A DNA stretch of 64,000 nt from Pirellulales bacterium (GCA_040901795.1 JBBDYH010000130.1:16881-80880); one strand, 5' to 3'; counted from the stretch's first letter, positions 7,507-61,700 are shown. Notes: a model not told the origin generated them from the sequence alone. A program made the numbers and translations.

Positions 7507-7528
7507 CTCGATGGGTATGGTGTAATCA

Positions 7529-23046: not shown

Positions 23047-23123
23047 CCTGTTAATCCCCACATGCCATTTTGCGCCGTTTTGGAGCGGGAATTGCTCCCG
23101 TTCTAGGGCGGAGATATTTGGCA

Positions 23124-24167
23124 ATGAAACGAATCCTGCTTTTCGCCGTCGTAGCATGGACGCTTGTCACATGTTCCGCCGCCGAAGAGGACCCCTCTTC
23201 TCAACAGCCGCAGCGAGGCATCGCTGAAGTTCTGCAAGACATGCTGGCCGGCGAGCCGCTGCCGGGCGACGTCATCTATGTTCATGTGTCGGATCAGGGG
23301 TTGCGCAAGTTGTTGCGTCGCGAAGTTGCACAGCAGACGGCAGTCAACGACACGATCATCGGCACGCCCGTGGAAGGAATCGCAAATACGGTTGGAATCA
23401 CCGGCGTGCGACTTGTGCCCGCAAAGGGCCGCGCAATTGTTGATCTGTTATTTACCGGAAATGTTGCAGCGCGAACGACAGGCGACGGGGGATCGGTGCG
23501 CGTTCACTCGTCGAGCAACACACGCTTCTCGGCTATCAAGCGGCTGACAATTGACGAACAAGGCATCAGGATCTCGCCTGCGCGGGTCGCCGCTCGAGCA
23601 TCGATTACGATTGAGCGCGTGACCACCGATTTACCGGGTCTGCGCGGGCGGATCGTGCAGCGTATCGGTAGCCGGCGTGCCGCCGAAACTAAGCTGGCGG
23701 CGGAATCTGAGTCGGCGCGCAAGGCCGAAATCCGGATTGCCCAACACTTCGATCGCGAAGTGGCCAAGGATCTGGGCAGGGCTCAGAGCAACCTGTCACG
23801 GTCTCTTGCGGAGTTGTCGAATGGGGAAGGCGCTTTCCGCGGCCGGCTGCGGTTCTCTACCTCCGGCCGCCACCTTCAGGTGGCGATTCACCGCGGCGAA
23901 GGCAATCCGACACGCCGTGCACCCCCCGCGTTGGCCGACCTGGGTACACCGGATGTGGCGATTCATGTCCATCGAGCGCTGGTGAACCGAGTGGTGCGGA
24001 GCACGATCGTACATGGGCCGACCAGCCCTTTGGTAATCGCGTTTCTGGGCGAGGAAGAACAGCGGTACGTCAGCGTGGCTCCGGACGAACCACAGAGGCA
24101 GCTCAAACAGTCGACCGACGGTCACTGGTGGTCGCTGGTGATTCCGCAGATCAAGCTGAAAATGTAG
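23124..24167 (+). CDS. hypothetical secreted protein
   Basis: ORF 23070..24167; ATG 23124 gives the signal peptide MKRILLFAVVAWTLVTCSAAEE. No family recognised. Confidence 0.6.
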   Translation: MKRILLFAVVAWTLVTCSAAEEDPSSQQPQRGIAEVLQDMLAGEPLPGDVIYVHVSDQGLRKLLRREVAQQTAVNDTIIGTPVEGIANTVGITGVRLVPAKGRAIVDLLFTGNVAARTTGDGGSVRVHSSSNTRFSAIKRLTIDEQGIRISPARVAARASITIERVTTDLPGLRGRIVQRIGSRRAAETKLAAESESARKAEIRIAQHFDREVAKDLGRAQSNLSRSLAELSNGEGAFRGRLRFSTSGRHLQVAIHRGEGNPTRRAPPALADLGTPDVAIHVHRALVNRVVRSTIVHGPTSPLVIAFLGEEEQRYVSVAPDEPQRQLKQSTDGHWWSLVIPQIKLKM

Positions 24168-24278: not shown

Positions 24279-25826
24279 TTAGCGGCCCAGCTCCGTCAGC
24301 AACCGACGGATTTGATGCTGGTATTCCTGCCGCTCGTGCTCCCAGTCGAAGCGCTGTTTATCGACCAGATCGCGCTGCCGATCGATTTGGCACTCACGCT
24401 TCGCTAACCGTCCGGCGTCGGCCTCGCCCTCGGCGGTGCGCTCGCGGAGCCATTGCTCCAGCTCGCGCTTTTGTGCCGCCAGGCGAGTGTGCTGTTCAGT
24501 AATCTGGGCGGCCAGTGTCTCCAATTTCCGCCGCTGGCTCACCAAGTCCTCTTGCTGCAAGCGATAACAGTCGCCCAGGCGGGCTCGCGAACGCGCAATT
24601 TGGTGCGAAAGCTGCGCCGGAGGAATCGCGCCGGCCAGTTGCGCCAACAGCTCCTCGGCTGCCAGGCGGTTCTCGAGCGCCTCGCGCTGGACCATCGTCA
24701 GCTCGGCTCGCATTTGATCGACGGCCGCTCGGCGGACCTCCAACTGCTGGCTCGCGGCCTCGAGCGCTTCTCGGCGGCGCTGCAAATCGGCTTCGCCACG
24801 GCGGCGGAGCTCCGCGTGTCGCTGTCGGTCGCCTTGCCGTTCGCCCTCGAACTGCTTGCGGTCCGCCAAGAGTGCCAGGTGCAGCTCGGCCACTTCGTTC
24901 TGGGCGCGCTCCAAAAGCGCTTCCGCTTGGGCGATGTGCTCACGGCGCGATTGCAGCTCAGCGAGCAGGTCGCCGAGTTGATCGAACTCATCGCCAAGCG
25001 CGCGGCCATCGCGAGACAGTATGCCGCCAGCCAGCCCTTCGGATCGCTGCCGCTGAGACGCGACGTACTGGACCGCCTCGTTACGGCCAGGATGCTTGGG
25101 TCGCGCCGGCAGCACCGCCTCGCCGGCCAAAAAACGCGCGAGCATCTCGAGCGTGATGCCGCGCCGCGTATCGAAGTCGTTCAGCCGCCGCTCCAGGTCG
25201 CCTACTAATTCGTCATGTGCGAGGCTCGCATCCCGCAGCGCCGCGGCAGCGGCCTGCACTTCGAGCAGCCGCTCGCGCGTCTGTTCGTCAATGTTGCGGC
25301 TGGCGGTTTCGCGGCGGTCGAGCGCGGCACGGCGAGCCTCGAGCTCCTCTTCTCCCGACCGGCGGATCGCTGCGATATTCTGTTCCAACTGTTCGATGTG
25401 CCCTGCCCGCTGCTGAAGCTCGTCCTCGCGTGTCTTGAGGGCGGCGTCGCGATCCGCGAGCTCCTCGTGCTGGCACTTGAGCCAGAGCCGGTTGTTTCGC
25501 TCCTGCTGTTCGAGGCGCGCCGCGTGCGCCTGGAGTTCCGCTTCACGCCGGTCGAGATCGGCTTGCTGCTGGCCAAGATGTTCGGAAAGCTGCTGTGCTT
25601 GGAGTCGAAGCTGTTGCACCATTGCCAGCGAGGCGATCCCAGCCTCCGCATCGTCGGCGGGATTGTCGGGACTGGCTGCGAATAGTCCCTCCTGCGACTG
25701 CGATTTCTCATCGCGGCCGTTGGCCATTTGGTGAGGCGGGTCAATGCGGTTCTCGCGTCCGGCCAACACCGTCGGTTCGGCGGTTGCGGCGATCCGGGAG
25801 CGACTGCTTATCTCAGGCATGAGCAA
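24279..25826 (-). CDS. hypothetical long coiled-coil protein (E/R/Q/A/L-rich)
   Basis: 515-aa ORF with heptad-like ELQ/RREAL repeats throughout. Divergent from the SNF2 helicase gene. Confidence 0.6.
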   Translation of the reverse strand: MLMPEISSRSRIAATAEPTVLAGRENRIDPPHQMANGRDEKSQSQEGLFAASPDNPADDAEAGIASLAMVQQLRLQAQQLSEHLGQQQADLDRREAELQAHAARLEQQERNNRLWLKCQHEELADRDAALKTREDELQQRAGHIEQLEQNIAAIRRSGEEELEARRAALDRRETASRNIDEQTRERLLEVQAAAAALRDASLAHDELVGDLERRLNDFDTRRGITLEMLARFLAGEAVLPARPKHPGRNEAVQYVASQRQRSEGLAGGILSRDGRALGDEFDQLGDLLAELQSRREHIAQAEALLERAQNEVAELHLALLADRKQFEGERQGDRQRHAELRRRGEADLQRRREALEAASQQLEVRRAAVDQMRAELTMVQREALENRLAAEELLAQLAGAIPPAQLSHQIARSRARLGDCYRLQQEDLVSQRRKLETLAAQITEQHTRLAAQKRELEQWLRERTAEGEADAGRLAKRECQIDRQRDLVDKQRFDWEHERQEYQHQIRRLLTELGR

Positions 25827-29231: not shown

Positions 29232-31745
29232 ATGGCCGCAAAGCTCGCGGACGCGGTGTCGAACGGCACAGCCCCGCGCCCAAAGACTTGGTGGCTGGGT
29301 CTGAACTTCGCCCTCACCATCTTCGTCAGCGCGTTTTTGCTGTTTCAAGTGCAGCCGCTGATCAGCAAGTTCATCCTCCCCTGGTTCGGCGGCAGTCCGG
29401 CCGTTTGGACCACGTGCATGCTGTTCTTTCAGACGCTGCTCTTCGCGGGCTATGCCTATGCGCATTTCAGCGTCAGGTATCTGGCGCCAGCGCGTCAGGC
29501 CCTGGTCCACGTGATGCTGCTGGTGGCGGCGCTGGCCGTCACGCTGCCGTCGATCGCTCCTTCGGCGAGCTGGAAGCCGGAGGGAAGCGACTCTCCCACC
29601 TGGCAGATCATGGCGCTGTTGGTGATGAACGTCGGCCTGCCGTATCTGTTGCTCTCCTCGACGGGACCGCTGTTGCAAGCCTGGTTTGCCCGCTCGTTTC
29701 CCGCCCGCTCGCCCTACCGCCTCTACGCGCTTTCGAACGTCGGTTCCCTGTTGGCCCTGGTCAGTTATCCGTTTCTCGTCGAACCCGCGCTCGATAGTCA
29801 TCAGCAATCGCGCATCTGGTCCTGGAGTTTTGCGCTCTTCGTGGTGCTTTGCGGATATGCAGCCGTCCACATGTGGAACTTGGGGCGGGCGAAGGGCGCG
29901 ACGGCACACACTGGCGGAGCCAGTGGCACACGCCCAGTTCAGCTCGTCAGCGGCGTCGACGAGCCGACACCGGCCTGGTATCAGCCGCTGTTGTGGATCA
30001 CCTTGCCGGCATTCGCCTCGATGATGCTCTTGGCCACGACCAACCACGTTTGCCAGGACGTCGCGGTGATTCCCTTTTTGTGGGTGGTGCCGCTGAGCTT
30101 GTACCTGCTGTCGTTCATCATCTCGTTCGATCACGAGCGCTGGTACGTGCGTCCGTTCTTCGCGCTTGCCGGGCTGGTCTTCGTTTATCTGGCTGCAGCC
30201 GCGCCCGACTTTCCCATCGAGTTTGGCGAGGACGAGACGAAGTCCAAGGTCACACTGACGCACTTCGCGAAGTCGACCGTCGAGTGGTGGCACACGCGAA
30301 CGCAACCCAGTCGCGACGACGACGCGGACGATGGCGACGAAAATGGCACGGCCGCAAACGACGAGGGCAACACGATCCCCTCCCTATTCGAACCCGAGCT
30401 GGATTACGTCGGCGAGCTCGTGGTCCACTTCGCGGCGCTGTTTTGTATCTGCATGATCTGTCACGGCGAACTGGTGCGCATCCGGCCTGCCCCGCGGTAT
30501 CTCACTTCGTTTTACCTGATGATCTCGGCGGGCGGCGCCCTAGGTGGCTTGTTCGTGACGCTGATCGCCCCGCGAGTTTTCGAAACCTATTACGAGTGGA
30601 AGCTGGGCATCTTTGGCGGCGTGATCCTGACGGCGGCGACGTTCCTGCTTAGCACCGGCATCTTCCAGCACTTCGACGATGTGGCCGGCCCTCCAACCAA
30701 CAAGCGCGGCTGGTCACTGGCCCGCTGGTCGATCATGCTCCTGGCCTGCGCGGTGCCGGGGCTGGTGCTCTCGGGCATCGCCTGGAGCGACGTTGCCAAA
30801 ATGCTCAAGGCCGACGATGAAGAGAGCGGTCAGGGCAATTATCGCGACGTGGTCATTGCGCGGGTGCGGAACTTCTACGGCGCCGTGCGGATCGAGGAAC
30901 GGCTGCAAACCGAGTCCGACACGGACGAGATGAAGCCGTACAGCCGCACGCTCTACCACGGCCGGATCATCCACGGTCTGCAGTACCTCGACGAAGACGA
31001 GCGCCTGGCTACAACCTACTACGCCACCGAGAGCGGCGTCGGCCGCGCGATTGGCTTTTTCAAACCCAACCCCAACATGCGCGTGGGCGCGGTAGGCTTG
31101 GGCACTGGGACGCTGGCCGCGTATTGCACCGAGCCTGGCTATTACTTCCGCTTTTACGAAATCAACCCCAGAATCGAAGAGCTCTCGAACGAGTACTTCA
31201 CCTACCGCAAAAACGCCGCCGGCAAAGTGGACATTATTATGGGCGATGCGCGGCTGTCGCTGGAGCGCGAAGCCGACGAAGCTTCACAGCGGTTCGACGT
31301 GCTGGTGCTCGACGCCTTCAGCGGCGACGCCATCCCCACGCACCTGCTCACGCGCGAGGCGTTCGAGATTTATCTCAAACACGTCGACATCGACAGCGGC
31401 ATCATCGCCGTGCACATCTCGAATCGCTACCTCGACCTGGTGCCCGTCGTCCGCGGCTTGACCGAAGAATTCAACCTCGGGTCGCTGCGCATCCATAACA
31501 GCGAATCGTCCGGCGGCGTGTATAGCTCCGAGTGGATTTGCGTCACGAACAACCGCGAGTTTCTGGACCTGCACGCCGAAGACGACGAGTATGACAGCAA
31601 GTGGCTGCCCCAATACATGTTTTACGCCGGCGAGCGCCAGCCGCACGCCGCCTTCGAAACCATCCGGAGCTGGCCCCGCTCGATTCTCTGGACCGACGCC
31701 TACAGCAATTTGTTTGATATATTGATTCGGAAGGAAGAGGACTAG
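29232..31745 (+). CDS. fused polytopic membrane domain / spermidine synthase-like methyltransferase-fold protein
   Basis: N-terminal multi-TM region (ILPWFGGSPAVWTTCMLFFQTLLFAGYAYAH). C-terminal part: VGAVGLGTGTLAAY, FYEINPRIEEL, GDARLSLE, FDVLVLDAFSGDAIPTHLLTREAF. Confidence 0.8.
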   Translation: MAAKLADAVSNGTAPRPKTWWLGLNFALTIFVSAFLLFQVQPLISKFILPWFGGSPAVWTTCMLFFQTLLFAGYAYAHFSVRYLAPARQALVHVMLLVAALAVTLPSIAPSASWKPEGSDSPTWQIMALLVMNVGLPYLLLSSTGPLLQAWFARSFPARSPYRLYALSNVGSLLALVSYPFLVEPALDSHQQSRIWSWSFALFVVLCGYAAVHMWNLGRAKGATAHTGGASGTRPVQLVSGVDEPTPAWYQPLLWITLPAFASMMLLATTNHVCQDVAVIPFLWVVPLSLYLLSFIISFDHERWYVRPFFALAGLVFVYLAAAAPDFPIEFGEDETKSKVTLTHFAKSTVEWWHTRTQPSRDDDADDGDENGTAANDEGNTIPSLFEPELDYVGELVVHFAALFCICMICHGELVRIRPAPRYLTSFYLMISAGGALGGLFVTLIAPRVFETYYEWKLGIFGGVILTAATFLLSTGIFQHFDDVAGPPTNKRGWSLARWSIMLLACAVPGLVLSGIAWSDVAKMLKADDEESGQGNYRDVVIARVRNFYGAVRIEERLQTESDTDEMKPYSRTLYHGRIIHGLQYLDEDERLATTYYATESGVGRAIGFFKPNPNMRVGAVGLGTGTLAAYCTEPGYYFRFYEINPRIEELSNEYFTYRKNAAGKVDIIMGDARLSLEREADEASQRFDVLVLDAFSGDAIPTHLLTREAFEIYLKHVDIDSGIIAVHISNRYLDLVPVVRGLTEEFNLGSLRIHNSESSGGVYSSEWICVTNNREFLDLHAEDDEYDSKWLPQYMFYAGERQPHAAFETIRSWPRSILWTDAYSNLFDILIRKEED

Positions 31746-37898: not shown

Positions 37899-38870
37899 AT
37901 GGCCACTCAGACCGCTACGGAACGAGAAGCAACTGCCAGCGAGCCGCGGGTTCTGCATGCTGTCGTTGAGGACAAACTTCAGCGAAGCGGCCGGATGGAG
38001 CTACGCAGGCGGCTGCTCGAAGCGATCGTTAGTGGCCGGGAAACCGTAAGCTGGGAGTGGAAAGACAAACGGCTGCGCTCGACCTATTTCCGGCAAGACG
38101 TTGACCTGCAGTATCCCGCGCCCGATGAAGACTGGCCGAGTGAAGGGGCCCGCTGCTTGTTCGATCTGTGGACCGACGATGTCGGTTATCTCGCCCGTTG
38201 GCCGCGCGAGGCAAAACAGGCTGCCGGCTCCTTCACCTTCCGCATTGAAGAGTGTCTCGTTCCTGTTCGCGCATCCTACGCTCATACCAATGACGCCGAG
38301 CGTGTTGACATCGAGTTGGAAGAAGTGCCCACGCGCGCTCAAGAAGCAGCGAAGCGTGCACTCCAATGGCACGACGAGTACCGGCTGGGACACTGCCCCG
38401 TCTCGCCGTTTAAAGAACAGTCGCCATCACAGCCGCCGAACCCTCGAAGCACCATCTGGGCATTTTTGCCGGCGATCTGCATCACCGCTTTGTTGGCCGC
38501 GCTGGCTATCGCGTCGTTTGCGGCGTTCGCCTGGCCTATAGTCGTTGGTTCGTTCGTCTGGGGTCTGACGGCCGTGCCGCTCTCAGGTTGGCTGGCCTTG
38601 AACTCATACGCTGCCCTTTCTATACCGGACGAATATGCCAGACTTGCCGCATTCCAGGCAACAGCGCGCCGCCGAGCATGGTCGGCAGGATTGCTGATCG
38701 TCCTGTTTTTCGCAGCGCTACTGCTACCCGCGATCGTCGCTGGTGTTTGGCTCCGCGAACCGGAGGCCGTTAGCCTGGCGATCGCGACGTTCTTTGGGTT
38801 CATGATGTTTATTTGGGGCGGACTACTCTTCCACCATTCCCGGCGCGAGCCAGATGTGGAGCCGTTATAG
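37899..38870 (+). CDS. hypothetical protein, soluble N-terminal domain plus about 4 C-terminal TM helices
   Basis: 323-aa ORF. No family recognised. Confidence 0.55.
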   Translation: MATQTATEREATASEPRVLHAVVEDKLQRSGRMELRRRLLEAIVSGRETVSWEWKDKRLRSTYFRQDVDLQYPAPDEDWPSEGARCLFDLWTDDVGYLARWPREAKQAAGSFTFRIEECLVPVRASYAHTNDAERVDIELEEVPTRAQEAAKRALQWHDEYRLGHCPVSPFKEQSPSQPPNPRSTIWAFLPAICITALLAALAIASFAAFAWPIVVGSFVWGLTAVPLSGWLALNSYAALSIPDEYARLAAFQATARRRAWSAGLLIVLFFAALLLPAIVAGVWLREPEAVSLAIATFFGFMMFIWGGLLFHHSRREPDVEPL

Positions 38871-44462: not shown

Positions 44463-45563
44463 CTATTTGTAGCCGCGGCTACCGAGGTGTAAGCGGATCA
44501 ACCGTTCGTAGCCCACCAGCAGCTTGTTCAAATCGACGGTGCGGACGCGCGGCGCAAGCTCCACCAGCCGCTGCCGCAGCGTGCCCCAGCGGGCGAGGAA
44601 GTAGTCTTCGTGGCCGCCGGCGCGGATCGCGCGTGCGATCGCTTCGCTGTCCTGGGCTCGGAGCATCTCAAGCGTGACGTCTCCTTCCCCCAAGGCCCGC
44701 GCATAGACGCCGCTGGTATAGTCGCCGTCGCCCAGCTCGCGCTCCCAGGTGGTGATCAGATTGCCAATGCGGCCCATGAACTGCGCATGCCAGATGGCGT
44801 CGCGCAAACGGCCCAGCTCCGCGCGGTCGAAACCCGGCGAGCACATCAGGTCTACGGTGGACGAGACGATAATGTGCATGTTGTGCGGCGAGTACAGGTC
44901 GTGCTCGGCGGCGTTCAACAGCGCCGGGTCCTCGTTGACCATGTGCGAATACCGCATGCCGTTGAAGAGCTGCAGGTAGTCATAGCGCCAAATCGTGGCG
45001 AACTGATCGAACAACGGCAGCAGCCGCGTGCGGCGCTTGATTTCCTGCCAGAGATCGAGCGTGTATTCGGCATAGGCGCGGTCTTCTGGCGCGACGTCCG
45101 TCAGCCGGGCACGTTCGGCGTCGAAGGGTACGTTGAGAAGCTGTTCCAGCAGACGGGCATCGCCACGCCGGTCGGCGATGTCGTCGAGCAGCACGTCCAG
45201 GACAACGCCCATCACCTTGGTGTCGCAGGCGAAGTCGAACAGCTTCGGATCGACGCTCGACAGCGTGGTGACTTCCACACCCTGGCGGACCCATTTCCAC
45301 AAGTACATGTTGCGCTTACCAACTTGCGCATATCCATCGACCCAGCGCATCAAGTCGGGATTGAGCTGCTTGTTCAAGACGTGCTGGATCTCGCCTTGAA
45401 TCTCTTCGGCCGTGGGAAGGCGAACCGCTGGCGCCGGTGCCCGCGTGGTTTGCCGCGCGACGGGCGCCTGAGGCGGCACCACCGCCACGAAGGTAGTGTC
45501 CGTCATCGAACCAGCTTGTAGCGCGCACATACAATATCCCCGTCGGGTTTCCCAATGAATCAA
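44463..45563 (-). CDS. class I terpene-synthase-like protein (DDxxD plus NSE/DTE-type motifs)
   Basis: VLDVLLDDIADRRGD (DDxxD), and about 140 aa later IGNLITTWERELGDGDY (N-x3-T-x3-E). Predominantly helical composition. The start may be ATG 45506 (MTDTTF). Confidence 0.5.
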   Translation of the reverse strand: MIHWETRRGYCMCALQAGSMTDTTFVAVVPPQAPVARQTTRAPAPAVRLPTAEEIQGEIQHVLNKQLNPDLMRWVDGYAQVGKRNMYLWKWVRQGVEVTTLSSVDPKLFDFACDTKVMGVVLDVLLDDIADRRGDARLLEQLLNVPFDAERARLTDVAPEDRAYAEYTLDLWQEIKRRTRLLPLFDQFATIWRYDYLQLFNGMRYSHMVNEDPALLNAAEHDLYSPHNMHIIVSSTVDLMCSPGFDRAELGRLRDAIWHAQFMGRIGNLITTWERELGDGDYTSGVYARALGEGDVTLEMLRAQDSEAIARAIRAGGHEDYFLARWGTLRQRLVELAPRVRTVDLNKLLVGYERLIRLHLGSRGYK

Positions 45564-50027: not shown

Positions 50028-50193
50028 TTGTGACTTCTCCGTCGTGTCGCTGGCGTATTTATGTAGCAGGCGCACTCCGTGTGCCGTTCCGTCCGCCGCG
50101 GCGGACGGTCTACGATGGCCGACCTTGTGAATCCCCTGCAAAACCCTTACCTTAGTTGCTTACTTTCGCGGGAACAAGCGTATCCTTTTTGCT

Positions 50194-51336
50194 ATGAGCA
50201 TTCGTCCGTCCACGGCGCCAATTCGAGTGGCCATCATCGGCGCCGGCAAGGTCAGCGACTACCACCATGTGCCGGCCATCCGGCTCGACCGGCGTGCCAC
50301 GCTCGTCGCCGCTTGCGACGCCGATCAGCGGCTGCTCGACCAGCGGCGCACCGACTGGCAGATCGACAAGTTGACAACCGACTTCCAGGCGATTTGTCGG
50401 GATCCTGAGATTGACGCGGTCGTCATTGCCACACCGAACTTCACGCATAAAGCTATCGCACTTGCCGCCGCCACAGCCGGGAAGCACATCATGTGCGAGA
50501 AACCGCTGGGGCTCAACGCGGGCGAAGTCCGCCAGATGTACGAGGGGGCGCGCGACCACGGCGTCGTACATATGACGGCGTTCACGTATCGCTTCGCACC
50601 TTCGATGCGATACTTGCGGCACTTGCTCAAGAGCGGCGCGCTGGGTGAACCACGGCACTTTCGCAGTCAGCGGTTTTTGGATTGGCCCGAGACGAGCTGG
50701 GCCTGGCGCCAATACCAGAAGCTGGCCGGCGCGGGTGACTTGTTCGACATGACCATCCACCGCATCGACTTTGCGATCGATTTGCTCGGTCCGCTCAAGT
50801 CGGTTTGCGGCGCGGTCGCACGGTTTTGCGCGCGCACGCAAACAGCCGACGGCCAATCCTGCGAGCCATCGGACGTCGATGACTGGTCCGGACTGATCGG
50901 CGAGTTCGAGAACGGCGCAACGGGTGTCTGGGAAGGCACGACGCTGGCCAAGGGATATCATCGCAACGGCTTTGGCCACGAATGGGCGGAGGTCAACGGC
51001 TCGGAGGGTTCGGCAGTGTATCGGTTGCACGAACCGAATGCGATTTTGCTGGGCAAAACTGGCGAGGATCTTCATCCCGTTCCCGTGCCGCCCGAGTTCC
51101 TCGCGCCGGCCGGCAGCCCGCGCGATCCAAATCAGGGCGAACCGGCCACGGTGTTCCGCTATGATTTGATGTGGGAGTTCGTTTCGGCAATCGTCGAACG
51201 GCGCGACGCGGCGCCGAGTTTTTACGACGGGCTCAACGCCCAACTCGTGGCCGATGCAGTGTTGCAGTCGCACGCCGAGCGGCGGTGGATCGACATGAAG
51301 AAAATGGGGATTGAGGGAATGGGGAATGGGGAATGA
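50194..51336 (+). CDS. Gfo/Idh/MocA family oxidoreductase
   Basis: IRVAIIGAGKVSDYHH Rossmann start, VVIATPNFTHKAIALAAATAGKHIMCEKP. The last ~11 codons (KMGIEGMGNGE) lie inside a GGGGAATG repeat arm. Confidence 0.85.
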   Translation: MSIRPSTAPIRVAIIGAGKVSDYHHVPAIRLDRRATLVAACDADQRLLDQRRTDWQIDKLTTDFQAICRDPEIDAVVIATPNFTHKAIALAAATAGKHIMCEKPLGLNAGEVRQMYEGARDHGVVHMTAFTYRFAPSMRYLRHLLKSGALGEPRHFRSQRFLDWPETSWAWRQYQKLAGAGDLFDMTIHRIDFAIDLLGPLKSVCGAVARFCARTQTADGQSCEPSDVDDWSGLIGEFENGATGVWEGTTLAKGYHRNGFGHEWAEVNGSEGSAVYRLHEPNAILLGKTGEDLHPVPVPPEFLAPAGSPRDPNQGEPATVFRYDLMWEFVSAIVERRDAAPSFYDGLNAQLVADAVLQSHAERRWIDMKKMGIEGMGNGE

Positions 51337-51392
51337 AAGAACGTATCCATTGCGACACACCATTCCACATTCCCCATTCGACATTCCCCATT
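51303..51392. repeat. family E, copy 4
   Basis: AATGGGGATTGAGGGAATGGGGAATGGGGAATG / 25-nt loop / CATTCCACATTCCCCATTCGACATTCCCCATT. The left arm supplies the last codons and the stop of the oxidoreductase ORF. Confidence 0.9.
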
Positions 51393-54639: not shown

Positions 54640-55455
54640 CTACATCGGCAGTGTCGTTCGCACCAGCCGATAACCGCACATCTGAAAGACCCACAACGTG
54701 GCGGCGACGAGGAACCAGTGAACGCTATACGACAGACAAAGCTGCTGGCCTATCTCGTGACCTAACGTATTGGTCAGGAATATCGCAATAAAAGCGGCGA
54801 AGATAATCTGGATCACGAGCCAACGTTGGCACTGCATCCCGACCGCTGCCGTCAGCGTAAAGGCCGAAAGCGGAGCCACGACGACCGCCAGCATGGCGAA
54901 AACGCCGGCATCGCCGCGGACCGCCGTGGGCGGTTCCATCCTCAGTACCCAGGAAACGGCAATCGCGACCGCGAGCGCAGCGCCGAACAAATCGAGAATC
55001 GTAAACTGTCGTCGCGATCGCTCGGTTTCTTCGGTGGGCTCGTTGCGGGCAAGATTCTCGATCCTCTTGCCGCGGAAGCGCAGAAAGCCAACCACTGCGG
55101 CCGTTGTCAATCCATGCGCGACGTACGCTGCCAGTACCACCCCCATGACGTCGTTAAAGTTGTGCATGTAAAGCACCAGACCCAAGCCGCTAAGCCCGCA
55201 CAGCGACCAGGGGAATCGCCGAATCCAACGGCTGCTTCCGAGCACCAGCCAGATTACAATTAAGTCGGCCTGTGCAAGTAAGACGGCCGCATCGCGCACG
55301 ACGGCAAAGTCGTGTTTCGACGATCGCGAGTTGACTCCGACCACGTCGGCCACACAGAAATGTGCGATGACCGCCAGCCAAGCCACCGCGGGCGGCCAAT
55401 AGGCGCTTTGCCGCTGTTCGATTGATGTTGCCGTGTTTAAGGCGATGCCAGGCAT
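54640..55455 (-). CDS. hypothetical polytopic membrane protein
   Basis: 271 aa, multiple TM helices. The central RRQFTILDLFGAAL motif is shared with its neighbour (tandem paralogue). Confidence 0.55.
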   Translation of the reverse strand: MPGIALNTATSIEQRQSAYWPPAVAWLAVIAHFCVADVVGVNSRSSKHDFAVVRDAAVLLAQADLIVIWLVLGSSRWIRRFPWSLCGLSGLGLVLYMHNFNDVMGVVLAAYVAHGLTTAAVVGFLRFRGKRIENLARNEPTEETERSRRQFTILDLFGAALAVAIAVSWVLRMEPPTAVRGDAGVFAMLAVVVAPLSAFTLTAAVGMQCQRWLVIQIIFAAFIAIFLTNTLGHEIGQQLCLSYSVHWFLVAATLWVFQMCGYRLVRTTLPM

Positions 55456-55486: not shown

Positions 55487-56290
55487 TCAATGAACGAGCC
55501 AACCGCCAGCGGTTTTGTGAACAAGGCGCATGCCGGCGCGTCGATAAATGGCCAGCAGTCCGGCTAGAGTTACACTATAAACCACGCCGACCAGCGGCAC
55601 GCCGGCAATGCTCCAGCGAAACAGTTGCTGCGTACCCAATGCTGCGATCAAAAGAGCGGTGGTCGGCAGCAGCAGCAAGCGCAGCCAGACCGCCCCCGGC
55701 CGCAACATGGCCCAGAGAGTGGCAATGGCGACCGCCGAAACGGCCATCGCCGCGAGCAAAGAGTGCATGCGAGGCACTAACGAGGCCGTGTGAAACAGAC
55801 TCAGCGTGGCGGCCGCCAGAGTCGTCCACCAGAAGAGCTGGCTTAGGGTAAATCGCGTCGACACGGCGTACTTCTTCTCCGCCGCGGTGTCGTACGGGAC
55901 CACGCGAAGTCCGATGAGGTGCATGATCGCCAGAGGCAATGACGCCGTCAGCACGGCTTCCGCCAAATAGCTTAGCGGCAACACGCCTGGCGAGGATGGA
56001 GCGAGCAGCATCGAAACGACAACCAGCGCGCCCAGCGCGACCAGGCACCAATATAGCGACGCGGCCATCAGACACAGCCAGATGGCCAGCATGCTGAGCT
56101 GCGCTCCGAGGATTCCGATCGCGACGTAGCGGAGTAGCTCACCCGCGGCGCGATCGCTGATGAACATCGAGAGAAGAGGGCGCAGGTATCCGCCCAGCGG
56201 AATCATCAAAAAATCGATCGCCACGCAGGCGATGATCGCCAGGAAACCAGGCGAGTTGCGATATGCTGTGCGTGCGGTTGCCGGTTGCAT
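55487..56290 (-). CDS. hypothetical polytopic membrane protein (paralogue of 54640..55455)
   Basis: 267 aa, with STRFTLSQLFWWTTL in the equivalent position. Confidence 0.55.
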   Translation of the reverse strand: MQPATARTAYRNSPGFLAIIACVAIDFLMIPLGGYLRPLLSMFISDRAAGELLRYVAIGILGAQLSMLAIWLCLMAASLYWCLVALGALVVVSMLLAPSSPGVLPLSYLAEAVLTASLPLAIMHLIGLRVVPYDTAAEKKYAVSTRFTLSQLFWWTTLAAATLSLFHTASLVPRMHSLLAAMAVSAVAIATLWAMLRPGAVWLRLLLLPTTALLIAALGTQQLFRWSIAGVPLVGVVYSVTLAGLLAIYRRAGMRLVHKTAGGWLVH

Positions 56291-57338: not shown

Positions 57339-58868
57339 CTACGCCTGCGCATCGTCCCATTTCGGTCGCCAGAGAGGTAAACGGGGAAAGAGCTCGCCCG
57401 CCGTTTCCAGTGCGATCTGTGTCGAGGGGATGATTCGCCCCTGCTGGACTGATTCGGCGATGTCGTTGTGTCCCAGCAACATCCGCGTGAACTCGTTGTC
57501 TTTAAGCGCCAGATAGCTGCGGCCTAGCCTACCGCTGCTGAGCCGCACGCCACGGCGAGTCACAGTGAGCACCTGCCTGGTCCCCTCGATGAACAGCCCC
57601 AGCTCGCAGACTGGCGGCAGATTGGCCGTGCGGGCTCGCTCGGCGAGCTCCGGTTCGATAGCCCTGACAAACTGTGCGGGATTCAGGACCTTGACCATCT
57701 GCACTTCGCTGCCGTTGCTCTCGCTGGCGTTGGTCATGCCACCTGCCTCAACGACAAGCTGGTGCAGGGAATCACCTGGCGGCGCTTCTACGGCGATCGT
57801 CTGCCGGTTGCGTTCGATCGAGTCGCCGCAGGCCCGCGCGAGTAACTGGACGGCTGCGGCGGAGTGATCGGGCGACGTTAACAGTTCGACCACGCGGTCC
57901 TGGCAAACCACGGCGTAGCCCACGATCGGGGCATTCGTGTCGACCAGTTCCATCCGGTCGCGTCCGTGAATCGCTACGATGATGTGGTCGAATGCCTTAC
58001 GGCTGATGAGCCAGCGCCAGTAGGCTTCGCTCCGCTCTAAAGGGCCGTAGCCCCGTACGGTTTGCTGCGCGTAGATGCGCATCAGTGATGGTAGCTCGAC
58101 GTGTCGCCACAGCCGGATGCTCAACGGAGGGCGCGGCTCGGACGCCGCTGAAAGGTGGGCGAGAATGTCTCGAGCCCGGTTGAGCGAATAACTCTCCCGC
58201 CCGCACACGGCCCAGCCGGCGCTCCGGAAAAACTGCGGAATTCGCGTCCGCAGGACGCCCAGGGTGGCGCCGGAGTTGCGCATTTCCTGCTCGGCACGGT
58301 GCAGCAGTCGCGTGGCGTACCCTCGCGAGCGGAATTCGGGAAGCGTGCCCACCCATTGCAACTGCGCAATCGGCAATTGCAAGCCGCCAAACCACATCTT
58401 CCGGTGCGACAACTGCAAGTGCGCTGCAATTCGCCCCTCGCGCTTGATGAGCAGGCGCTGCGCAGGGTCGTACGTCGGCTCGTCTTGCACCGCGTGAAAC
58501 TCTTCACGCGATGGCGCTTGAAAGACCGCCAACAGAAACTGATAGATCTCGGGGTGGTCCCCTGCGCGCGCAGAAACCAACTCCTCCAGCGGCGCACGGG
58601 TGCGGCGACGACTTCGCAGACCGACTTGTGGGCGTTCCGAGCCCAGGCGCGCAGCGCGAGCCGCGAGGGGCTTTTCAAGGGGAGGTAAGACTGACCGCGA
58701 AGTGCGGAGAGAATCGCCGTTGCTGTTGGCAGGCGAGTGGCGTCGGTCAGTCAGTTGTCGCTGCGTAGTTTGTGGCAGCGTGGGGTCGAGAGTCCGTTTC
58801 GCGCGGGCGGCTTCCTTGGCCGCTGGTCTGCCGTGCGAAACGGCCGGCGTCGTATCCGCTCGGCTCAT
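57339..58868 (-). CDS. Eis-like GNAT N-acetyltransferase (GNAT + GNAT-like + SCP2-like C-terminus) with a basic, disordered N-terminal extension
   Basis: IAQLQWVGTLPEFRSRGYATRLLHRAEQEMRNSGATLGVL is an acetyl-CoA pocket-like motif. The C-terminal LFPRLPLWRPKWDD matches the Eis-type end. The true start may be an internal GTG near VSARAGDHPEIY. Confidence 0.7.
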   Translation of the reverse strand: MSRADTTPAVSHGRPAAKEAARAKRTLDPTLPQTTQRQLTDRRHSPANSNGDSLRTSRSVLPPLEKPLAARAARLGSERPQVGLRSRRRTRAPLEELVSARAGDHPEIYQFLLAVFQAPSREEFHAVQDEPTYDPAQRLLIKREGRIAAHLQLSHRKMWFGGLQLPIAQLQWVGTLPEFRSRGYATRLLHRAEQEMRNSGATLGVLRTRIPQFFRSAGWAVCGRESYSLNRARDILAHLSAASEPRPPLSIRLWRHVELPSLMRIYAQQTVRGYGPLERSEAYWRWLISRKAFDHIIVAIHGRDRMELVDTNAPIVGYAVVCQDRVVELLTSPDHSAAAVQLLARACGDSIERNRQTIAVEAPPGDSLHQLVVEAGGMTNASESNGSEVQMVKVLNPAQFVRAIEPELAERARTANLPPVCELGLFIEGTRQVLTVTRRGVRLSSGRLGRSYLALKDNEFTRMLLGHNDIAESVQQGRIIPSTQIALETAGELFPRLPLWRPKWDDAQA

Positions 58869-59002
58869 TTCGCAGTCCTCTTGCGACTTTTTGCTGGGTC
58901 AATCCATTCAGCCCTTGTAAGCGTACGATGAGCCGCCAGAAAATTCCAGCCTCTATTGACAACTTTTCGAAAAAATATTTTTGGACGACCACTGAGGACC
59001 GA

Positions 59003-60688
59003 CTAGCTCGCGCCGCTTAAGAACTCGCGTAGCTGATGCGCGGGATAGAGACAGAGGCTGTATTCGCGCGACGAAAGGACCGCGTCGGCGCGCGCCTGCC
59101 GTTCAAGCCGTTCGATGTCGGCCAACAGCTTCGCGCGGCAGTCTGAGAGCCACGGCTGCAACGCCAGATTGGCCGAGCGAATCGCCTCGTGCCGAGTGCG
59201 CGCGTTGTCTTGCGACTTCGCCATCGCGATCCACTGCCGCTTCATGTCGATCGAGCGCTGCAATTCCCAGTTCGCTGGCTTTGCCGCCGGCCCCGAACAG
59301 CGCTCGCAATGTCGTTGTTGCGAAGGTGGTTCCACGAACCGCTCAGGGTGGTAGGTCAGTTCCCGGAGCGCTTGACGCGTACGGCGAAGCTCTTCGGCAG
59401 CGCCGCGATTGTGCTCGATCGGCAGCCGCAACGTGCCCGATACCACCATGTACCCCGGCGGCTCCAAGCCGAAGAACTGCTCGATCAATACATCCGTCAT
59501 TTGGTCGTACTTGGCGCCGCCGATGCCGTGGACGAACAAGTCGCCCAGCAGCACACGGGCGAGCATCGTGGTGATCAACGCCCGCGTTCGCAAGCGCACA
59601 CCCAGCCGCGCCAGCTCCTGCAGTTGCTCGATCGCACGATCGGGATTGGTTTCGGCCGATATATCGAGCGGCTGCTCCCAGCCGGCACGGTCGGCCAGCA
59701 CAATACCGTTGTCCCGCGAGCGGACGAAAAGCCGCCGCCGCGTGGGGTCGTCCGCTCTCCATACCCAGAAGGGCGCTTCCAGCCAATCGCCTTCCGCTGA
59801 CAACTCGGGCACCGGATGGGCATGGCTGCGGACGTGGTTGGCACTGCGGTACTCAAACAGGGCAGCGTTGTAAATCTCCCACAGCCGTGGCAAATGCGCC
59901 AGCAGATGGGCGGCGAAACGATGAAACGCCGGCAGCGAGCAGACGCGGCTCTGTGGAATCTCGAGCGTCGCCGCGCCCCAGCGCCCCTCCCAGACGTGCC
60001 GCGCCTGGGCGAGACATTCGCCGAGCCGGTCGGTGTGGCGCGAGCGGCTGAGTACATCCGGCCAAAAGTCTTTGACGAGCGGTCGGGGCACGAGCGTGGT
60101 CAGCTTGTCAGCGACGCGATCGGCGAACGACTCGAACAGCGCTCGATCGACAATCCGGCGTTCCTCAAACGGCACCGCGGTCGTGGGCCGGTCGAAGAGC
60201 ACCGACTCGACGAGCGGCCGAGTTGCCGAGCCGGTTGGCACGCGCAGCGATGAGGCCTTGATCGTATCGCTATCGACCACCAGGTTCACCGCGACGGCGC
60301 CGCTGGCGCGAGCGACCGAGTGGAGCATGAAATTCTTGAGCCACACGCCCGGATGAAACAGTTCGGGCTGATGGCCGGCGAGCACCAACGAGGGCTGGGC
60401 GGCGATCCCCCCGCTTTGCTCTAAGCTAGAGACATCCCGGTAGGCCCGCGTGTAGGCCAGCGCCTCGGCTAGCAACTGGCGGCGCGCCTCAGCCGCCAAA
60501 TCCGGCAGCGATTGCCCGTGCACGTCGTAATCGCATGCTTCGAGCCGGGCGCGATGCGCGGCGATGAGTTCAGCACCCGCCGAGACAGGCGGCGCCACGA
60601 GCTTGCCGCCGTCGTCGCGCGGGGTCTGGAACCGCGGCGGTCGCGCGCGATCACCCATGCTCGGTTCGGCTTCCAGAGAGTTACACAC
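59003..60688 (-). CDS. conserved hypothetical protein, distantly BshC-like (bacillithiol cysteine-adding enzyme family)
   Basis: 561 aa (GTG 60688 or ATG 60658). LVLAGHQPELFHPGVWLKNF resembles VGGQQAGLLTGPLYTIHK as I remember B. subtilis BshC. LLGDLFVHGIGGAKYDQ resembles IPTLAFIAGPGEINYW. Similar length and a C-terminal coiled coil. Confidence 0.5.
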   Translation of the reverse strand: MCNSLEAEPSMGDRARPPRFQTPRDDGGKLVAPPVSAGAELIAAHRARLEACDYDVHGQSLPDLAAEARRQLLAEALAYTRAYRDVSSLEQSGGIAAQPSLVLAGHQPELFHPGVWLKNFMLHSVARASGAVAVNLVVDSDTIKASSLRVPTGSATRPLVESVLFDRPTTAVPFEERRIVDRALFESFADRVADKLTTLVPRPLVKDFWPDVLSRSRHTDRLGECLAQARHVWEGRWGAATLEIPQSRVCSLPAFHRFAAHLLAHLPRLWEIYNAALFEYRSANHVRSHAHPVPELSAEGDWLEAPFWVWRADDPTRRRLFVRSRDNGIVLADRAGWEQPLDISAETNPDRAIEQLQELARLGVRLRTRALITTMLARVLLGDLFVHGIGGAKYDQMTDVLIEQFFGLEPPGYMVVSGTLRLPIEHNRGAAEELRRTRQALRELTYHPERFVEPPSQQRHCERCSGPAAKPANWELQRSIDMKRQWIAMAKSQDNARTRHEAIRSANLALQPWLSDCRAKLLADIERLERQARADAVLSSREYSLCLYPAHQLREFLSGAS

Positions 60689-60730
60689 AGCGCTCGCTTA
60701 CCCCGTAGTTGCTGCGATACGGCAGATCGC

Positions 60731-61474
60731 TCAGGCACAGGACGACCGAACGGGACGCCGCTCGTGCCGCCGCTCCAGCAGCCGCGCCTCGCTGCGCTCA
60801 ATTACCGCGCGATAATGCGCCAGACGCGTGTGGGCGTCGTCGAGCGCTCCACCGAACGACCGCTTCTCGTCAAGATAGATCAATGGCACCGGCAGTTCTA
60901 CGATCCGCAGACCGCAATTTGCCGCTTGCACCCACAACTCCAGCGGCATCGCGTAGCCCGGTTCGCTCAGATCGAAGCAGGTTAGCGCCGGCACGCGATA
61001 CGCCTTGAAGCCGCAAAAGGCGTCAGTCAGGTTCAAGCCGAGCCTTCGATTCACTTCTTCGGTGATCAACCGATTGATGCGGCGACGATCGGCCGGCGGA
61101 GCGGTCTGGTCATCGAAGGTCTGCAAGTACCGACTCCCGGAGACGATATCGACCTCGTCGGTGCAAGCGGCGGCGAACTCCGGAATTCGCTGCGGCTCAT
61201 GTTGACCGTCGCAATCGATTGTCACCAGCACGTCGTAGCCTTCGGCCAGCGCATAGTCGAAGGCGCTTTTCAGTGCGGCGCCATAGCCCCGGTTTTGCGG
61301 ATGCCGCAGCAAGCGAACGTCGCGGCGCGCGGCGAGCAGATCCGCCGTGCCGTCGCTCGAGCCATCATCCACCACCAGAACATCGCTGCTATACCGGCGC
61401 ACTTCGTCGAGCACCGGCGTCACATGGGCGACTTCGTTGTAGACGGGCAAGGCTGTCAGGAAACGGCGCGGCAT
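60731..61474 (-). CDS. family 2 glycosyltransferase (soluble, DPM1/GtrB-like)
   Basis: ORF 60731..61693; ATG 61474 (MPRRFLTALPVYNE). VLVVDDGSSDGT, HPQNRGYGAALKSAF, IDCDGQHEP, SGSRY. Confidence 0.85.
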   Translation of the reverse strand: MPRRFLTALPVYNEVAHVTPVLDEVRRYSSDVLVVDDGSSDGTADLLAARRDVRLLRHPQNRGYGAALKSAFDYALAEGYDVLVTIDCDGQHEPQRIPEFAAACTDEVDIVSGSRYLQTFDDQTAPPADRRRINRLITEEVNRRLGLNLTDAFCGFKAYRVPALTCFDLSEPGYAMPLELWVQAANCGLRIVELPVPLIYLDEKRSFGGALDDAHTRLAHYRAVIERSEARLLERRHERRPVRSSCA

Positions 61475-61700
61475 CGTATGTAAGGGCTTTCCAATTTGAG
61501 GTTCTGTCCCAACGGCCGGCGGGCCGCTGCCAACGTTCAAACGCAGTCGGGTCGTCCCATTGTAGACGCTGCGCTTGCCCGGACAACCAGCACGGATCGG
61601 CACATGCACCGTAAGCCGGCCTTGCAGCGCCGCCAGTGAAAACTCGACGGCCTTGGAAGGCCGTCGTACATGCTCGACAAGCTCGGCGAACACATGCGAG

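What the first reader, a model, noticed from the sequence alone, without database searches (positions are those of the whole stretch)
57339..61474. Co-directional GT2 / BshC-like / Eis-like GNAT cluster: possible uncharacterised low-molecular-weight-thiol (or related glycoside) pathway
Three consecutive minus-strand genes sit downstream of ispD-tyrS. The first is a soluble family-2 glycosyltransferase (61474..60731). After a 42-nt gap comes a 561-aa protein (60688..59003). Its motifs LVLAGHQPELFHPGVWLKNF, VNLVVDSD and LFVHGIGGAKYDQ line up with the GGQQAGLLTGPLYTIHK, FWVAGEDHD and AFIAGPGEINYW blocks I remember from BshC, and it also has a C-terminal coiled coil. After a 134-nt gap comes a multi-domain Eis-like GNAT (58868..57339). 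Glycosyltransferase plus Cys-adding enzyme plus N-acetyltransferase is the logic of mycothiol (MshA/MshC/MshD) and bacillithiol (BshA/BshC) synthesis. No deacetylase is visible here, and the glycosyltransferase is GT2 rather than GT4. As far as I know, no thiol cofactor pathway is established for Planctomycetota.
Basis: inference. Interest (0 to 1): 0.6.

Follow-up and report, generated by a model that had tools for sequence, protein, structure and literature searches.

The report
Planctomycete BshC-like ligase gene cluster
A tightly conserved gene cluster in Pirellulales bacteria pairs a sugar transferase with a previously unrecognised structural relative of the bacillithiol enzyme BshC and often an acetyltransferase; it may make the missing antioxidant thiol of this phylum, but that is unproven.

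Summary
The three minus-strand genes are real and lie where stated. The 561-aa protein matches no Pfam or NCBIfam model. Profile-profile comparison with BshC is not significant, and a BshC HMM scores no better than on shuffled controls. However, its high-confidence AlphaFold model (pLDDT 88) has B. subtilis BshC (4WBD) as its best PDB match (Foldseek E 6e-13, full length), ahead of class I tRNA synthetases. It is therefore a remote, structure-level BshC relative and not a BshC family member.

The family is large: at least 3,900 clusters at 50% identity, in at least 591 species genomes, and the ones I could inspect are Pirellulales or other Planctomycetota. A Dpm1/PpgS-type GT2 gene sits directly upstream in 75 of 78 loci, and one locus has the two fused. 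The GNAT, which has a confirmed full Eis-type fold, follows in 42 of 74 loci. No deacetylase recurs nearby.

The pathway logic of sugar transfer, amide ligation and N-acetylation is plausible. The literature states that Planctomycetes have no predicted low-molecular-weight thiol. Against that, the GT2's nearest relatives act on polyprenyl phosphate, so a lipid-linked sugar modification is a serious rival. The thiol idea is partly supported and untested.

The parts
61645..61666 (-). Terminator-like GC-rich hairpin followed by a T-run, directly after the tyrS stop codon. It separates tyrS from the cluster.
   Evidence: 9-bp stem, 7 GC pairs. This is a consensus match only.
61559..61586 (-). Sigma-70-like promoter candidate (TTGTCC-16-TACAAT), about 85 nt upstream of the GT2 ATG.
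   Evidence: This is a consensus match only, and planctomycete promoters are poorly defined.
60731..61474 (-). Family-2 glycosyltransferase, 247 aa, with no TM segment. It is a Dpm1/PpgS/ArnC-type GT-A catalytic domain.
   Evidence: PF00535 at 6e-26. Best NCBIfam match is PpgS at 2e-29, below its cutoff. Closest PDB sequences are ArnC at 2e-11 and PfDPMS at 6e-10. DxDxQH, E12, R117 and R131 equivalents are conserved; S135 is Asn and K178 is Ala. Directly upstream of the BshC-like gene in 75 of 78 loci.
59003..60688 (-). BshC-like protein, 561 aa from the GTG at 60688 or 551 aa from the ATG at 60658. It has a class-I-aaRS-type Rossmann core with inserted domains and a C-terminal long-helix domain. 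It is the founding member here of a large unannotated Pirellulales family.
   Evidence: No Pfam or NCBIfam hit. AF2 pLDDT 88.4, pTM 0.85. Foldseek top hit 4WBD BshC at E 5.7e-13, then class I LysRS and TyrRS. More than 4,278 homologs, 3,932 clusters at 50% identity, and at least 591 species.
60329..60388 (-). Motif 1, LVLAGHQPELFHPGVWLKNF (residues 101-120): strand beta-1 and the start of the first helix, which is the HIGH-motif position in class I synthetases. It corresponds to GGQQAGLLTGPLYTIHK in BshC.
   Evidence: Family invariants. hhalign pairs LAGHQPELFH with VVGGQQAGLL. Secondary structure.
60266..60289 (-). Motif 2, VNLVVDSD (residues 134-141): the second Rossmann strand followed by invariant acidic residues. 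It is topologically equivalent to FWVAGEDHD in BshC.
   Evidence: D139 is invariant and D141 nearly so. The equivalence rests on topology only; hhalign did not pair these segments.
59501..59539 (-). Motif 3, LFVHGIGGAKYDQ (residues 384-396). F-x-x-G-x-G-x-x-x-Y is invariant in both this family and BshC (AFIAGPGEINYW), and is preceded by TRAL here and TRPL in BshC.
   Evidence: Invariant columns in A3 and A2. The segments are paired in the relaxed hhalign alignment.
57339..58868 (-). Eis-type GNAT N-acetyltransferase, 509 aa. The conserved three-domain core is residues ~95-509 (57339..58586). Residues 1 to ~90 form a non-conserved disordered tail.
   Evidence: PF13527 at 2e-17. Weak matches to Eis-family NCBIfam models. 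PF13530 is present in homologs. AF2 pLDDT 83.6. Foldseek gives Eis-family structures at E 1e-22 to 1e-17 with target-normalised TM 0.73-0.82. Directly downstream of the BshC-like gene in 42 of 74 loci. GAGGA lies 7 nt before the ATG at 58868.

Best explanation
The cluster is its own transcription unit and encodes a cytoplasmic three-step pathway that builds an N-acylated amino-acid-sugar conjugate. The logic matches bacillithiol and mycothiol synthesis, but the parts are different.

Step 1 (inferred): the GT2 transfers a sugar from a nucleotide sugar to an anionic acceptor. Step 2 (inferred from fold and from genetic coupling): the BshC-like protein, a class-I-synthetase-type Rossmann enzyme, ligates an amino acid to the glycoside through an amide bond, as BshC is believed to do with cysteine and GlcN-malate. 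Step 3 (inferred; optional, since it is present in about 57% of loci): the Eis-type GNAT N-acetylates a free amine of the product, as MshD does in mycothiol synthesis.

Cysteine, and therefore a new low-molecular-weight thiol for Pirellulales, is the leading specific candidate for the amino acid, but it has not been shown.

What is shown: the genes, the folds, the size of the family, its taxonomic setting and the gene linkage. What is inferred: every catalytic step, every substrate and the product.
For: The fold of the middle protein is closest to BshC: Foldseek E 5.7e-13, probability 1.00, about 600 aligned columns, seven orders of magnitude ahead of the next hit, from a model with pLDDT 88. 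Invariant motifs of the two families correspond in order and spacing.

GT2 and the BshC-like gene are adjacent and co-directional in 75 of 78 loci from different species, and one locus carries an in-frame fusion. bshC was itself discovered through co-occurrence and occasional co-localisation with the glycosyltransferase gene bshA (PMC5790435).

The Eis-type GNAT is the commonest third gene (42 of 74 loci) and has a full Eis fold. All three proteins lack TM segments. No flippase, GT-C or other membrane protein recurs in the neighbourhood.

[quoted passage not shown] In the one locus where GT2 is replaced, the BshC-like gene abuts a GCS2 glutamate-cysteine-ligase-family gene and an ATP-grasp amidoligase gene. 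myo-Inositol-1-phosphate synthase follows the gene in two genomes.
Against: There is no sequence-level support for homology to BshC. BshC's own reaction has never been reconstituted (PMC4360819, PMC5790435), so 'works like BshC' rests on genetics alone.

The GT2 is an inverting GT2 and not a GT4. Its nearest characterised relatives all glycosylate polyprenyl phosphate, and it keeps two of the three acceptor-phosphate ligands of DPMS.

No deacetylase recurs within +/-7 kb of the gene in 81 loci, and I could not search whole genomes for one. The GNAT is absent from 43% of loci. Nothing identifies cysteine as the substrate. The GCS2 and inositol contexts each occur in only one or two genomes.
Confidence: 0.45

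Rival explanations
1. Lipid-linked sugar modification. The GT2 makes a polyprenyl-phosphate sugar, as PpgS, DPMS, ArnC and GtrB do. The BshC-like enzyme and the GNAT then decorate the lipid-linked (amino)sugar, for example by aminoacylation followed by N-acetylation, before it is flipped and transferred to an envelope glycan or glycoprotein.
For: The best NCBIfam match is the polyprenyl-phospho-GalNAc synthase PpgS at 2e-29, near full length and of similar size with no TM segment. Next come the Dol-P-hexose transferase, AglJ, ArnC and PgfS. The closest solved structures are ArnC, PfDPMS and GtrB. DxDxQH, E12 and the acceptor-phosphate ligands R117 and R131 of PfDPMS are conserved.
Against: All NCBIfam scores are far below the equivalog cutoffs (102 against 370 bits). 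S135 and K178 of PfDPMS are not conserved, and the IFH1-equivalent helix is Arg-rich and not hydrophobic. No flippase, GT-C transferase or small membrane partner recurs next to the pair in 81 loci, unlike the arn and gtr loci and ppgS (this last comparison is from my own knowledge). The only characterised protein with the BshC fold acts on a soluble glycoside.
Confidence: 0.3
2. Same pathway logic, but the ligated amino acid is not cysteine. The product would then be a non-thiol N-acetyl-aminoacyl glycoside, such as a compatible solute, siderophore-like molecule or signalling metabolite.
For: The evidence for the pathway logic is the same as above. Nothing in the sequence identifies cysteine: no cysteine-synthesis or thiol-redox genes recur nearby, and there is no CysRS or MshC-type match.
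Against: The only functional precedent for this fold is cysteine addition. There is also a recognised gap for a thiol in this phylum, and a GCS2 neighbour in L073.
Confidence: 0.2
3. It is a canonical bacillithiol (or mycothiol) pathway that was simply missed by annotation.
For: BshC is the top structural hit. One of 44 family members gives a sub-threshold TIGR03998 hit at E 0.052.
Against: No BshC, MshC or MshD model matches. The BshC HMM scores are indistinguishable from those on shuffled sequences. The glycosyltransferase is GT2 and not BshA/MshA-type GT4, and no BshB/MshB deacetylase is nearby. Identity to BshC is 12%.
Confidence: 0.03

Closest known systems
BshC (YllA), the bacillithiol cysteine-adding enzyme of B. 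subtilis; PDB 4WBD; PF10079 + PF24850 / TIGR03998
   Same: Overall architecture and length (about 540-560 aa): a class-I-synthetase-like Rossmann core with inserted domains and a C-terminal long-helix (coiled-coil) domain. It is the best structural match in the PDB. Signature positions correspond: G-x-Q after strand 1, an acidic cluster after strand 2, TR[AP]L, and F-x-x-G-x-G-x-x-x-Y. Its gene is linked to a glycosyltransferase gene.
   Different: Identity is 12%. No HMM or profile-profile signal exists. The motifs differ in detail: GHQPxLFHPGVWxKN against GGQQAGLLTGPLYTIHK, and HGIGGAKYD against AGPGEINYW. This family keeps a His-x-Gly at the HIGH position, where BshC has Thr-Gly-Pro. Its partner is a GT2 and not the GT4 BshA, and no BshB is nearby. 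Its taxonomic range is Pirellulales, whereas bacillithiol producers include Firmicutes, Deinococcus and Chlorobiaceae.
Mycothiol pathway (MshA GT4, MshB deacetylase, MshC CysRS-like ligase, MshD GNAT)
   Same: The same three kinds of chemistry are encoded together: a glycosyltransferase, a class-I-synthetase-fold ligase and an N-acetyltransferase. A myo-inositol-1-phosphate synthase gene follows the ligase gene in two genomes.
   Different: No sequence match to MshA, MshC or MshD models. MshC and CysRS structures are not among the top 50 fold matches. The GNAT is Eis-type (three domains), whereas MshD has two GNAT domains. The glycosyltransferase is an inverting GT2.
Polyprenyl-phosphate GT2 glycosyltransferases: PpgS (Rv3631), DPMS/Dpm1, ArnC, GtrB
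   Same: GT-A fold, PF00535, the DxDxQH metal and donor motif, and Glu12, Arg117 and Arg131 equivalents. Like PpgS it is short (247 aa) and lacks TM helices.
   Different: Scores are far below every equivalog cutoff. Ser135 is Asn and Lys178 is Ala. The IFH1-equivalent helix is highly charged. No membrane partner, flippase or GT-C gene is conserved beside it. Instead it is coupled to a BshC-like gene, which to my knowledge is not known for any member of this group.
Eis (enhanced intracellular survival) acetyltransferase of M. tuberculosis, and Eis-like GNATs (PDB 3R1K, 4JD6, 6RFT, 2OZG, 3N7Z)
   Same: A full three-domain fold (GNAT, GNAT, SCP2-like), with target-normalised TM 0.73-0.82 over about 430 columns. 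PF13527 matches, and homologs also carry PF13530.
   Different: Identity is 13-18%. The protein scores below the NCBIfam Eis cutoffs. It has an extra disordered N-terminal tail of about 90 residues. Its genomic context is unrelated to aminoglycoside resistance, and its substrate is unknown.

Membership tests
BshC (PF10079 / TIGR03998) | Significant match to the family HMMs | tested here: not met
   No hit for the window protein even at E 0.1. None of 38 members hits PF10079 at E<=10. One of 44 members hits TIGR03998 at E 0.052, which counts as noise because a BshC HMM scores no better than on shuffled or reversed controls.
BshC (PF10079 / TIGR03998) | Rossmann core with connecting-peptide insertions plus a C-terminal coiled-coil domain (as described for 4WBD in PMC4360819) | tested here: met
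   AF2 model with pLDDT 88. 4WBD is the top Foldseek hit at E 5.7e-13, TM 0.47/0.49 over 602 columns.
BshC (PF10079 / TIGR03998) | Family-invariant motifs GGQQxGLxTGPLYTIHK, AGEDHD and FxAGPGExxYW | tested here: inconclusive
   Variant motifs sit at the corresponding positions (GHQPxLFHPGVWxKN, DxD, FxHGIGGAKYD). Motifs 1 and 3 are paired by hhalign, but with probability below 1%. I could not obtain a residue-level structural superposition.
BshC (PF10079 / TIGR03998) | Works with BshA (GT4) and BshB (LmbE-type deacetylase) to make bacillithiol | tested here: not met
   The neighbouring glycosyltransferase is GT2 and no deacetylase recurs within +/-7 kb. Genome-wide presence of bshA and bshB could not be tested, and the product could not be tested.
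MshC / CysRS-type cysteine ligase | CysRS-like sequence with HIGH and KMSKS motifs | tested here: not met
   No tRNA-synthetase Pfam hit. The sequence has only H-P-G-V at the HIGH position (read directly from the sequence). MshC and CysRS are absent from the top 50 fold matches.
Polyprenyl-phosphate GT2 glycosyltransferases (Dpm1/PpgS/ArnC/GtrB) | GT-A GT2 domain with the DxDxQH motif | tested here: met
   PF00535 at 6e-26. DCDGQH aligns to DADLQH of PfDPMS.
Polyprenyl-phosphate GT2 glycosyltransferases (Dpm1/PpgS/ArnC/GtrB) | Acceptor-phosphate ligands Arg117, Arg131 and Ser135 (PfDPMS numbering, PMC5526996) | tested here: inconclusive
   Arg117 and Arg131 equivalents are present. Ser135 is Asn and Lys178 is Ala, judged from the pairwise phmmer alignment.
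Polyprenyl-phosphate GT2 glycosyltransferases (Dpm1/PpgS/ArnC/GtrB) | Score above the curated equivalog cutoff of a named member | tested here: not met
   Best is PpgS at 102 bits against a cutoff of 370.
Polyprenyl-phosphate GT2 glycosyltransferases (Dpm1/PpgS/ArnC/GtrB) | Activity on a polyprenyl phosphate | not testable with these tools
   Needs an enzyme assay.
Eis-family GNAT | Three-domain fold: Acetyltransf_9 GNAT, second GNAT, SCP2-like domain | tested here: met
   PF13527 at 2e-17. PF13530 is present in homologs. Foldseek matches Eis, Eis2 and Eis-like structures over about 430 columns with target-normalised TM up to 0.82.
Eis-family GNAT | Score above the NCBIfam Eis cutoffs; aminoglycoside or protein acetylation | tested here: not met
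   36.5 bits against 259, and 16.3 bits against 576. Activity is not testable here.
MshD (mycothiol synthase) | Match to the MshD model | tested here: not met
   No MshD model appears among the NCBIfam hits at E<=0.1.

The most novel reading that the evidence does not exclude
The cluster makes a so-far-unknown low-molecular-weight thiol: an (N-acetyl-)cysteinyl-aminosugar conjugate built with a GT2 and a deeply divergent BshC-type ligase. This thiol would be the missing cytoplasmic redox buffer of Pirellulales. The family would also provide a second, independent handle on the still-unsolved BshC reaction.
Probability: 0.22. Interest if true: 0.85.

Novelty: new variant of a known kind. Interest (0 to 1): 0.65.

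Why it matters
Planctomycetes are named in the literature as a major lineage with no documented or predicted low-molecular-weight thiol (PMC6282198). This cluster gives that question a concrete, testable gene target that is present in cultured strains such as Lacipirellula limnantheis I41.

Separately, it defines a very large protein family: about 3,900 clusters at 50% identity, with no Pfam or NCBIfam model, and with every source-supplied name I saw reading 'hypothetical protein'. I could recognise these proteins as BshC relatives only through structure. BshC's own reaction has never been reconstituted. A divergent family that retains a His-x-Gly at the HIGH position and is genetically welded to its glycosyltransferase could help work out what this fold does.

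If the lipid-linked alternative is correct instead, it would be a new type of modification of polyprenyl-phosphate sugars in the unusual planctomycete envelope.

Tried and rejected
- Sequence routes to BshC all failed. These were Pfam and NCBIfam on the window protein; Pfam on 38 members and NCBIfam on 44 members at E<=10; a family profile against all PDB sequences, which returned only coiled-coil noise; and hhalign against one BshC sequence and against a 23-sequence BshC alignment, with probability 0.7-0.8%.
- Global hhalign gave nonsense.
- A home-made BshC HMM scored family members no higher than window-shuffled or reversed versions. I therefore treat the single TIGR03998 hit at E 0.052 as noise.
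- The BshC alignment contained only Bacillaceae, which limits its sensitivity.
- Unbiased clustering of all ORFs within +/-7 kb in 81 loci found no recurrent deacetylase, cysteine-metabolism, thiol-redox, flippase or GT-C gene.
- The GCS2/ATP-grasp context of L073 was not found in any other locus.
- No Rfam match (riboswitch or T-box) was found in the cluster or elsewhere in the window.
- Cluster look-ups of divergent representatives gave no organism names, so the range outside Pirellulales-type genomes remains unknown.
- The exact-sequence look-up of the NCBI protein's contig failed.
- The primary BshC structure paper (PMC4303302) is not held.
- I rejected 'operon with ispD-tyrS': a terminator-like hairpin and a promoter-like site lie between tyrS and GT2, and tyrS and ispD are absent from all other loci.

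Full report
**Observation**

GT2 is 60731..61474 (247 aa). A 561-aa ORF is 59003..60688. A 509-aa GNAT is 57339..58868. The gaps between them are 42 nt and 134 nt. tyrS and ispD lie upstream and aroE is convergent downstream.

Proteins identical to the second and third ORFs are annotated in an NCBI Pirellulales MAG as 'hypothetical protein' (551 aa, starting at the ATG at 60658) and 'GNAT family N-acetyltransferase'. None of the three proteins has a TM-like segment.

A terminator-like hairpin sits directly after tyrS (61666..61645), and a promoter-like site (61586..61559) lies in the 226-nt gap before GT2. tyrS and ispD are never near the homolog in 83 other loci. The cluster is therefore its own unit, and its position after ispD-tyrS is incidental.

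**Is the middle protein BshC-like?**

By sequence, no. It matches no Pfam or NCBIfam model. None of 38 family members hits PF10079, even at E<=10. A family profile finds only coiled-coil noise among PDB sequences, which include 4WBD.

I recovered the 4WBD sequence and built a 23-sequence BshC alignment. hhalign against the family gave a probability below 1%. A BshC HMM scores family members no better than shuffled or reversed controls, so a lone TIGR03998 hit at E 0.052 in 1 of 44 members is noise.

By structure, yes. An AlphaFold2 model from a 38-sequence alignment is confident (pLDDT 88.4, pTM 0.85). It shows a Rossmann core with inserted beta-domains and a C-terminal long-helix domain. Its best PDB match is B. 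subtilis BshC (4WBD): E 5.7e-13, probability 1.00, TM 0.47/0.49 over 602 columns at 12% identity. Class I LysRS follows at 1e-6 and TyrRS at 8e-4.

BshC is described as a Rossmann core with CP1/CP2 insertions and a dimerising coiled coil (PMC4360819). A relaxed hhalign run gives a co-linear, full-length alignment. It pairs LAGHQPELFH with VVGGQQAGLL, RTRAL with VTRPL, and LFVHGIGGAKYD with AFIAGPGEINYW. F-x-x-G-x-G-x-x-x-Y is invariant in both families.

I conclude that this is a remote, structure-level relative of BshC and not a member of the BshC family.

**The family and its context**

The family is large. There are more than 4,278 hits, and every source-supplied name among the 120 best hits listed is 'hypothetical protein'. 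A profile search finds 3,932 cluster representatives at 50% identity. At least 591 GTDB species genomes carry it. The best 80 are labelled Pirellulales, Thermoguttaceae, Lacipirellulaceae, Pirellulaceae or unclassified Planctomycetota, and they include the cultured Lacipirellula limnantheis I41. One 5-kb contig is labelled Nealsonbacteria and is probably misbinned.

In 81 non-redundant loci:
- GT2 is directly upstream and co-directional in 75 of 78 loci with room to see it.
- The Eis-like GNAT is directly downstream in 42 of 74.
- The full trio occurs in 40 of 71.
- A NIF3/DUF34 gene precedes GT2 in 29 of 74.

One MAG (L051) encodes an in-frame GT2::BshC-like fusion of 759 aa.

Unbiased clustering of all neighbouring ORFs found no recurrent deacetylase, flippase, GT-C, cysteine or redox gene.

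The exceptions are informative. In L073, GT2 is absent and the gene abuts a GCS2 (glutamate-cysteine ligase family 2) gene. That gene is itself preceded by an RLAN/RimK ATP-grasp and a C39-like peptidase. This arrangement is unique among the loci. In two genomes myo-inositol-1-phosphate synthase follows the BshC-like gene.

**The partners**

The GNAT has PF13527, and homologs also carry the Eis C-terminal PF13530 domain. Its AF2 model (pLDDT 83.6; residues 1 to ~90 disordered) matches Eis-family structures at E 1e-22 to 1e-17. These include 4MY0, 2OZG, 3N7Z, M. abscessus Eis2 and M. tuberculosis Eis, with target-normalised TM 0.73-0.82 over about 430 columns. 'Multi-domain Eis-like GNAT' is confirmed.

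The GT2 has PF00535. Its best NCBIfam matches are PpgS (2e-29), a Dol-P-hexose transferase, AglJ, ArnC and PgfS, all far below their cutoffs. Its closest solved structures by sequence are ArnC, PfDPMS and GtrB.

Against PfDPMS (PMC5526996) the GT2 keeps DxDxQH, Glu12 and the acceptor-phosphate ligands Arg117 and Arg131. Ser135 is replaced by Asn and Lys178 by Ala. The IFH1-equivalent helix is Arg-rich and not hydrophobic. An anionic acceptor, probably a phosphate, is therefore likely. Polyprenyl phosphate is the default by homology, but it is not established.

**How it most likely works**

The near-obligate linkage of GT2 with the BshC-like gene, with one fusion, says the two proteins act in one pathway. 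bshC was itself found through co-occurrence and occasional co-localisation with bshA (PMC5790435).

My best reading (confidence about 0.45) has three steps:
- GT2 forms a glycoside on an anionic acceptor.
- The BshC-like enzyme ligates an amino acid to it.
- Where present, the Eis-type GNAT N-acetylates the product.

This is the logic of bacillithiol and mycothiol synthesis carried out with non-orthologous parts. Every catalytic step is inferred. Cysteine is the leading candidate for the amino acid, giving an overall probability of about 0.2-0.25 that the product is a thiol. That rests on the only functional precedent for this fold and on the stated absence of any predicted thiol in Planctomycetes (PMC6282198).

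The main rival (about 0.3) is a lipid-linked pathway in which GT2 makes a polyprenyl-phosphate sugar that the other two enzymes decorate. The GT2's homology favours it. The lack of any conserved membrane partner and the soluble precedent of BshC count against it. A canonical bacillithiol or mycothiol pathway is effectively excluded.

**Caveats**

- BshC's own reaction has never been reconstituted.
- The BshC alignment was Bacillaceae-only.
- I could not superpose structures at residue level.
- I could not search whole genomes for deacetylases or thiol-dependent enzymes.
- I could not see the distant tail of the family.

**Verdict**

This is a new variant of a known kind: an unannotated, phylum-restricted BshC-like family in a new genetic context. 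It is directly testable in cultured strains.

Noticed in passing
L051:1817-4096: A single in-frame ORF of 759 aa fuses the GT2 to the BshC-like protein. It is either a natural 'Rosetta stone' fusion or an indel artefact in one MAG.
   Followed up: partly
L073:4149-9645: In one Planctomycetota MAG that lacks the GT2 neighbour, the BshC-like gene starts one base after a GCS2 (glutamate-cysteine ligase family 2) gene. That gene is preceded by an RLAN/RimK ATP-grasp gene and a Peptidase_C39_2 gene. The arrangement was not found in any other locus.
   Followed up: yes
L013 and L005, directly downstream of the BshC-like gene (L002:7784-8902 is the same place as in L013): myo-Inositol-1-phosphate synthase occupies the position that the GNAT takes in other genomes. 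Inositol phosphate is the acceptor in mycothiol synthesis, but this context occurs in only two genomes.
   Followed up: partly
29 of 74 related loci, immediately upstream of GT2 (e.g. L001:4157-4945); absent from the window: A NIF3/DUF34 dinuclear-metal protein gene is a frequent co-directional neighbour. Its function is unknown. Whether it could be the missing hydrolase or deacetylase is pure speculation.
   Followed up: no
window 61645-61666 and 61559-61586 (minus strand): A strong terminator-like hairpin lies right after tyrS, and a sigma-70-like promoter candidate lies before GT2. Together they suggest the cluster is transcribed separately from ispD-tyrS.
   Followed up: partly
window 58586-58868 (GNAT residues 1 to ~94): The N-terminal tail is Arg/Pro/Ser/Thr-rich, non-conserved and predicted to be disordered. 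Homologs have tails of variable length. The ATG at 58868 has a GAGGA 7 nt upstream, so the tail may be real.
   Followed up: partly
window 54640-55455 and 55487-56290 (minus strand): Two adjacent multi-TM ORFs of about 270 aa have no Pfam match and are weakly similar to each other (26% over 101 aa, E 0.002). They are possibly old tandem paralogs.
   Followed up: partly
window 7526-13079 (minus strand): Two large overlapping or adjacent ORFs carry RHS repeats (701 and 1205 aa). They may be a toxin-delivery type locus or a single gene split by a frameshift.
   Followed up: no
L081 (contig JABMRB010000867.1): A 5-kb contig binned as 'Candidatus Nealsonbacteria' carries Pirellulales-type BshC-like and GNAT genes at 48-49% identity to the window's. 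It is most likely a misbinned contig.
   Followed up: no
window 29232-31745(+), 50152-51384(-), 24279-25826(-), 23070-24167(+), 44463-45563(-), 37899-38870(+): Several long ORFs have no Pfam match at E<=1e-5. I did not check whether they are real genes.
   Followed up: no
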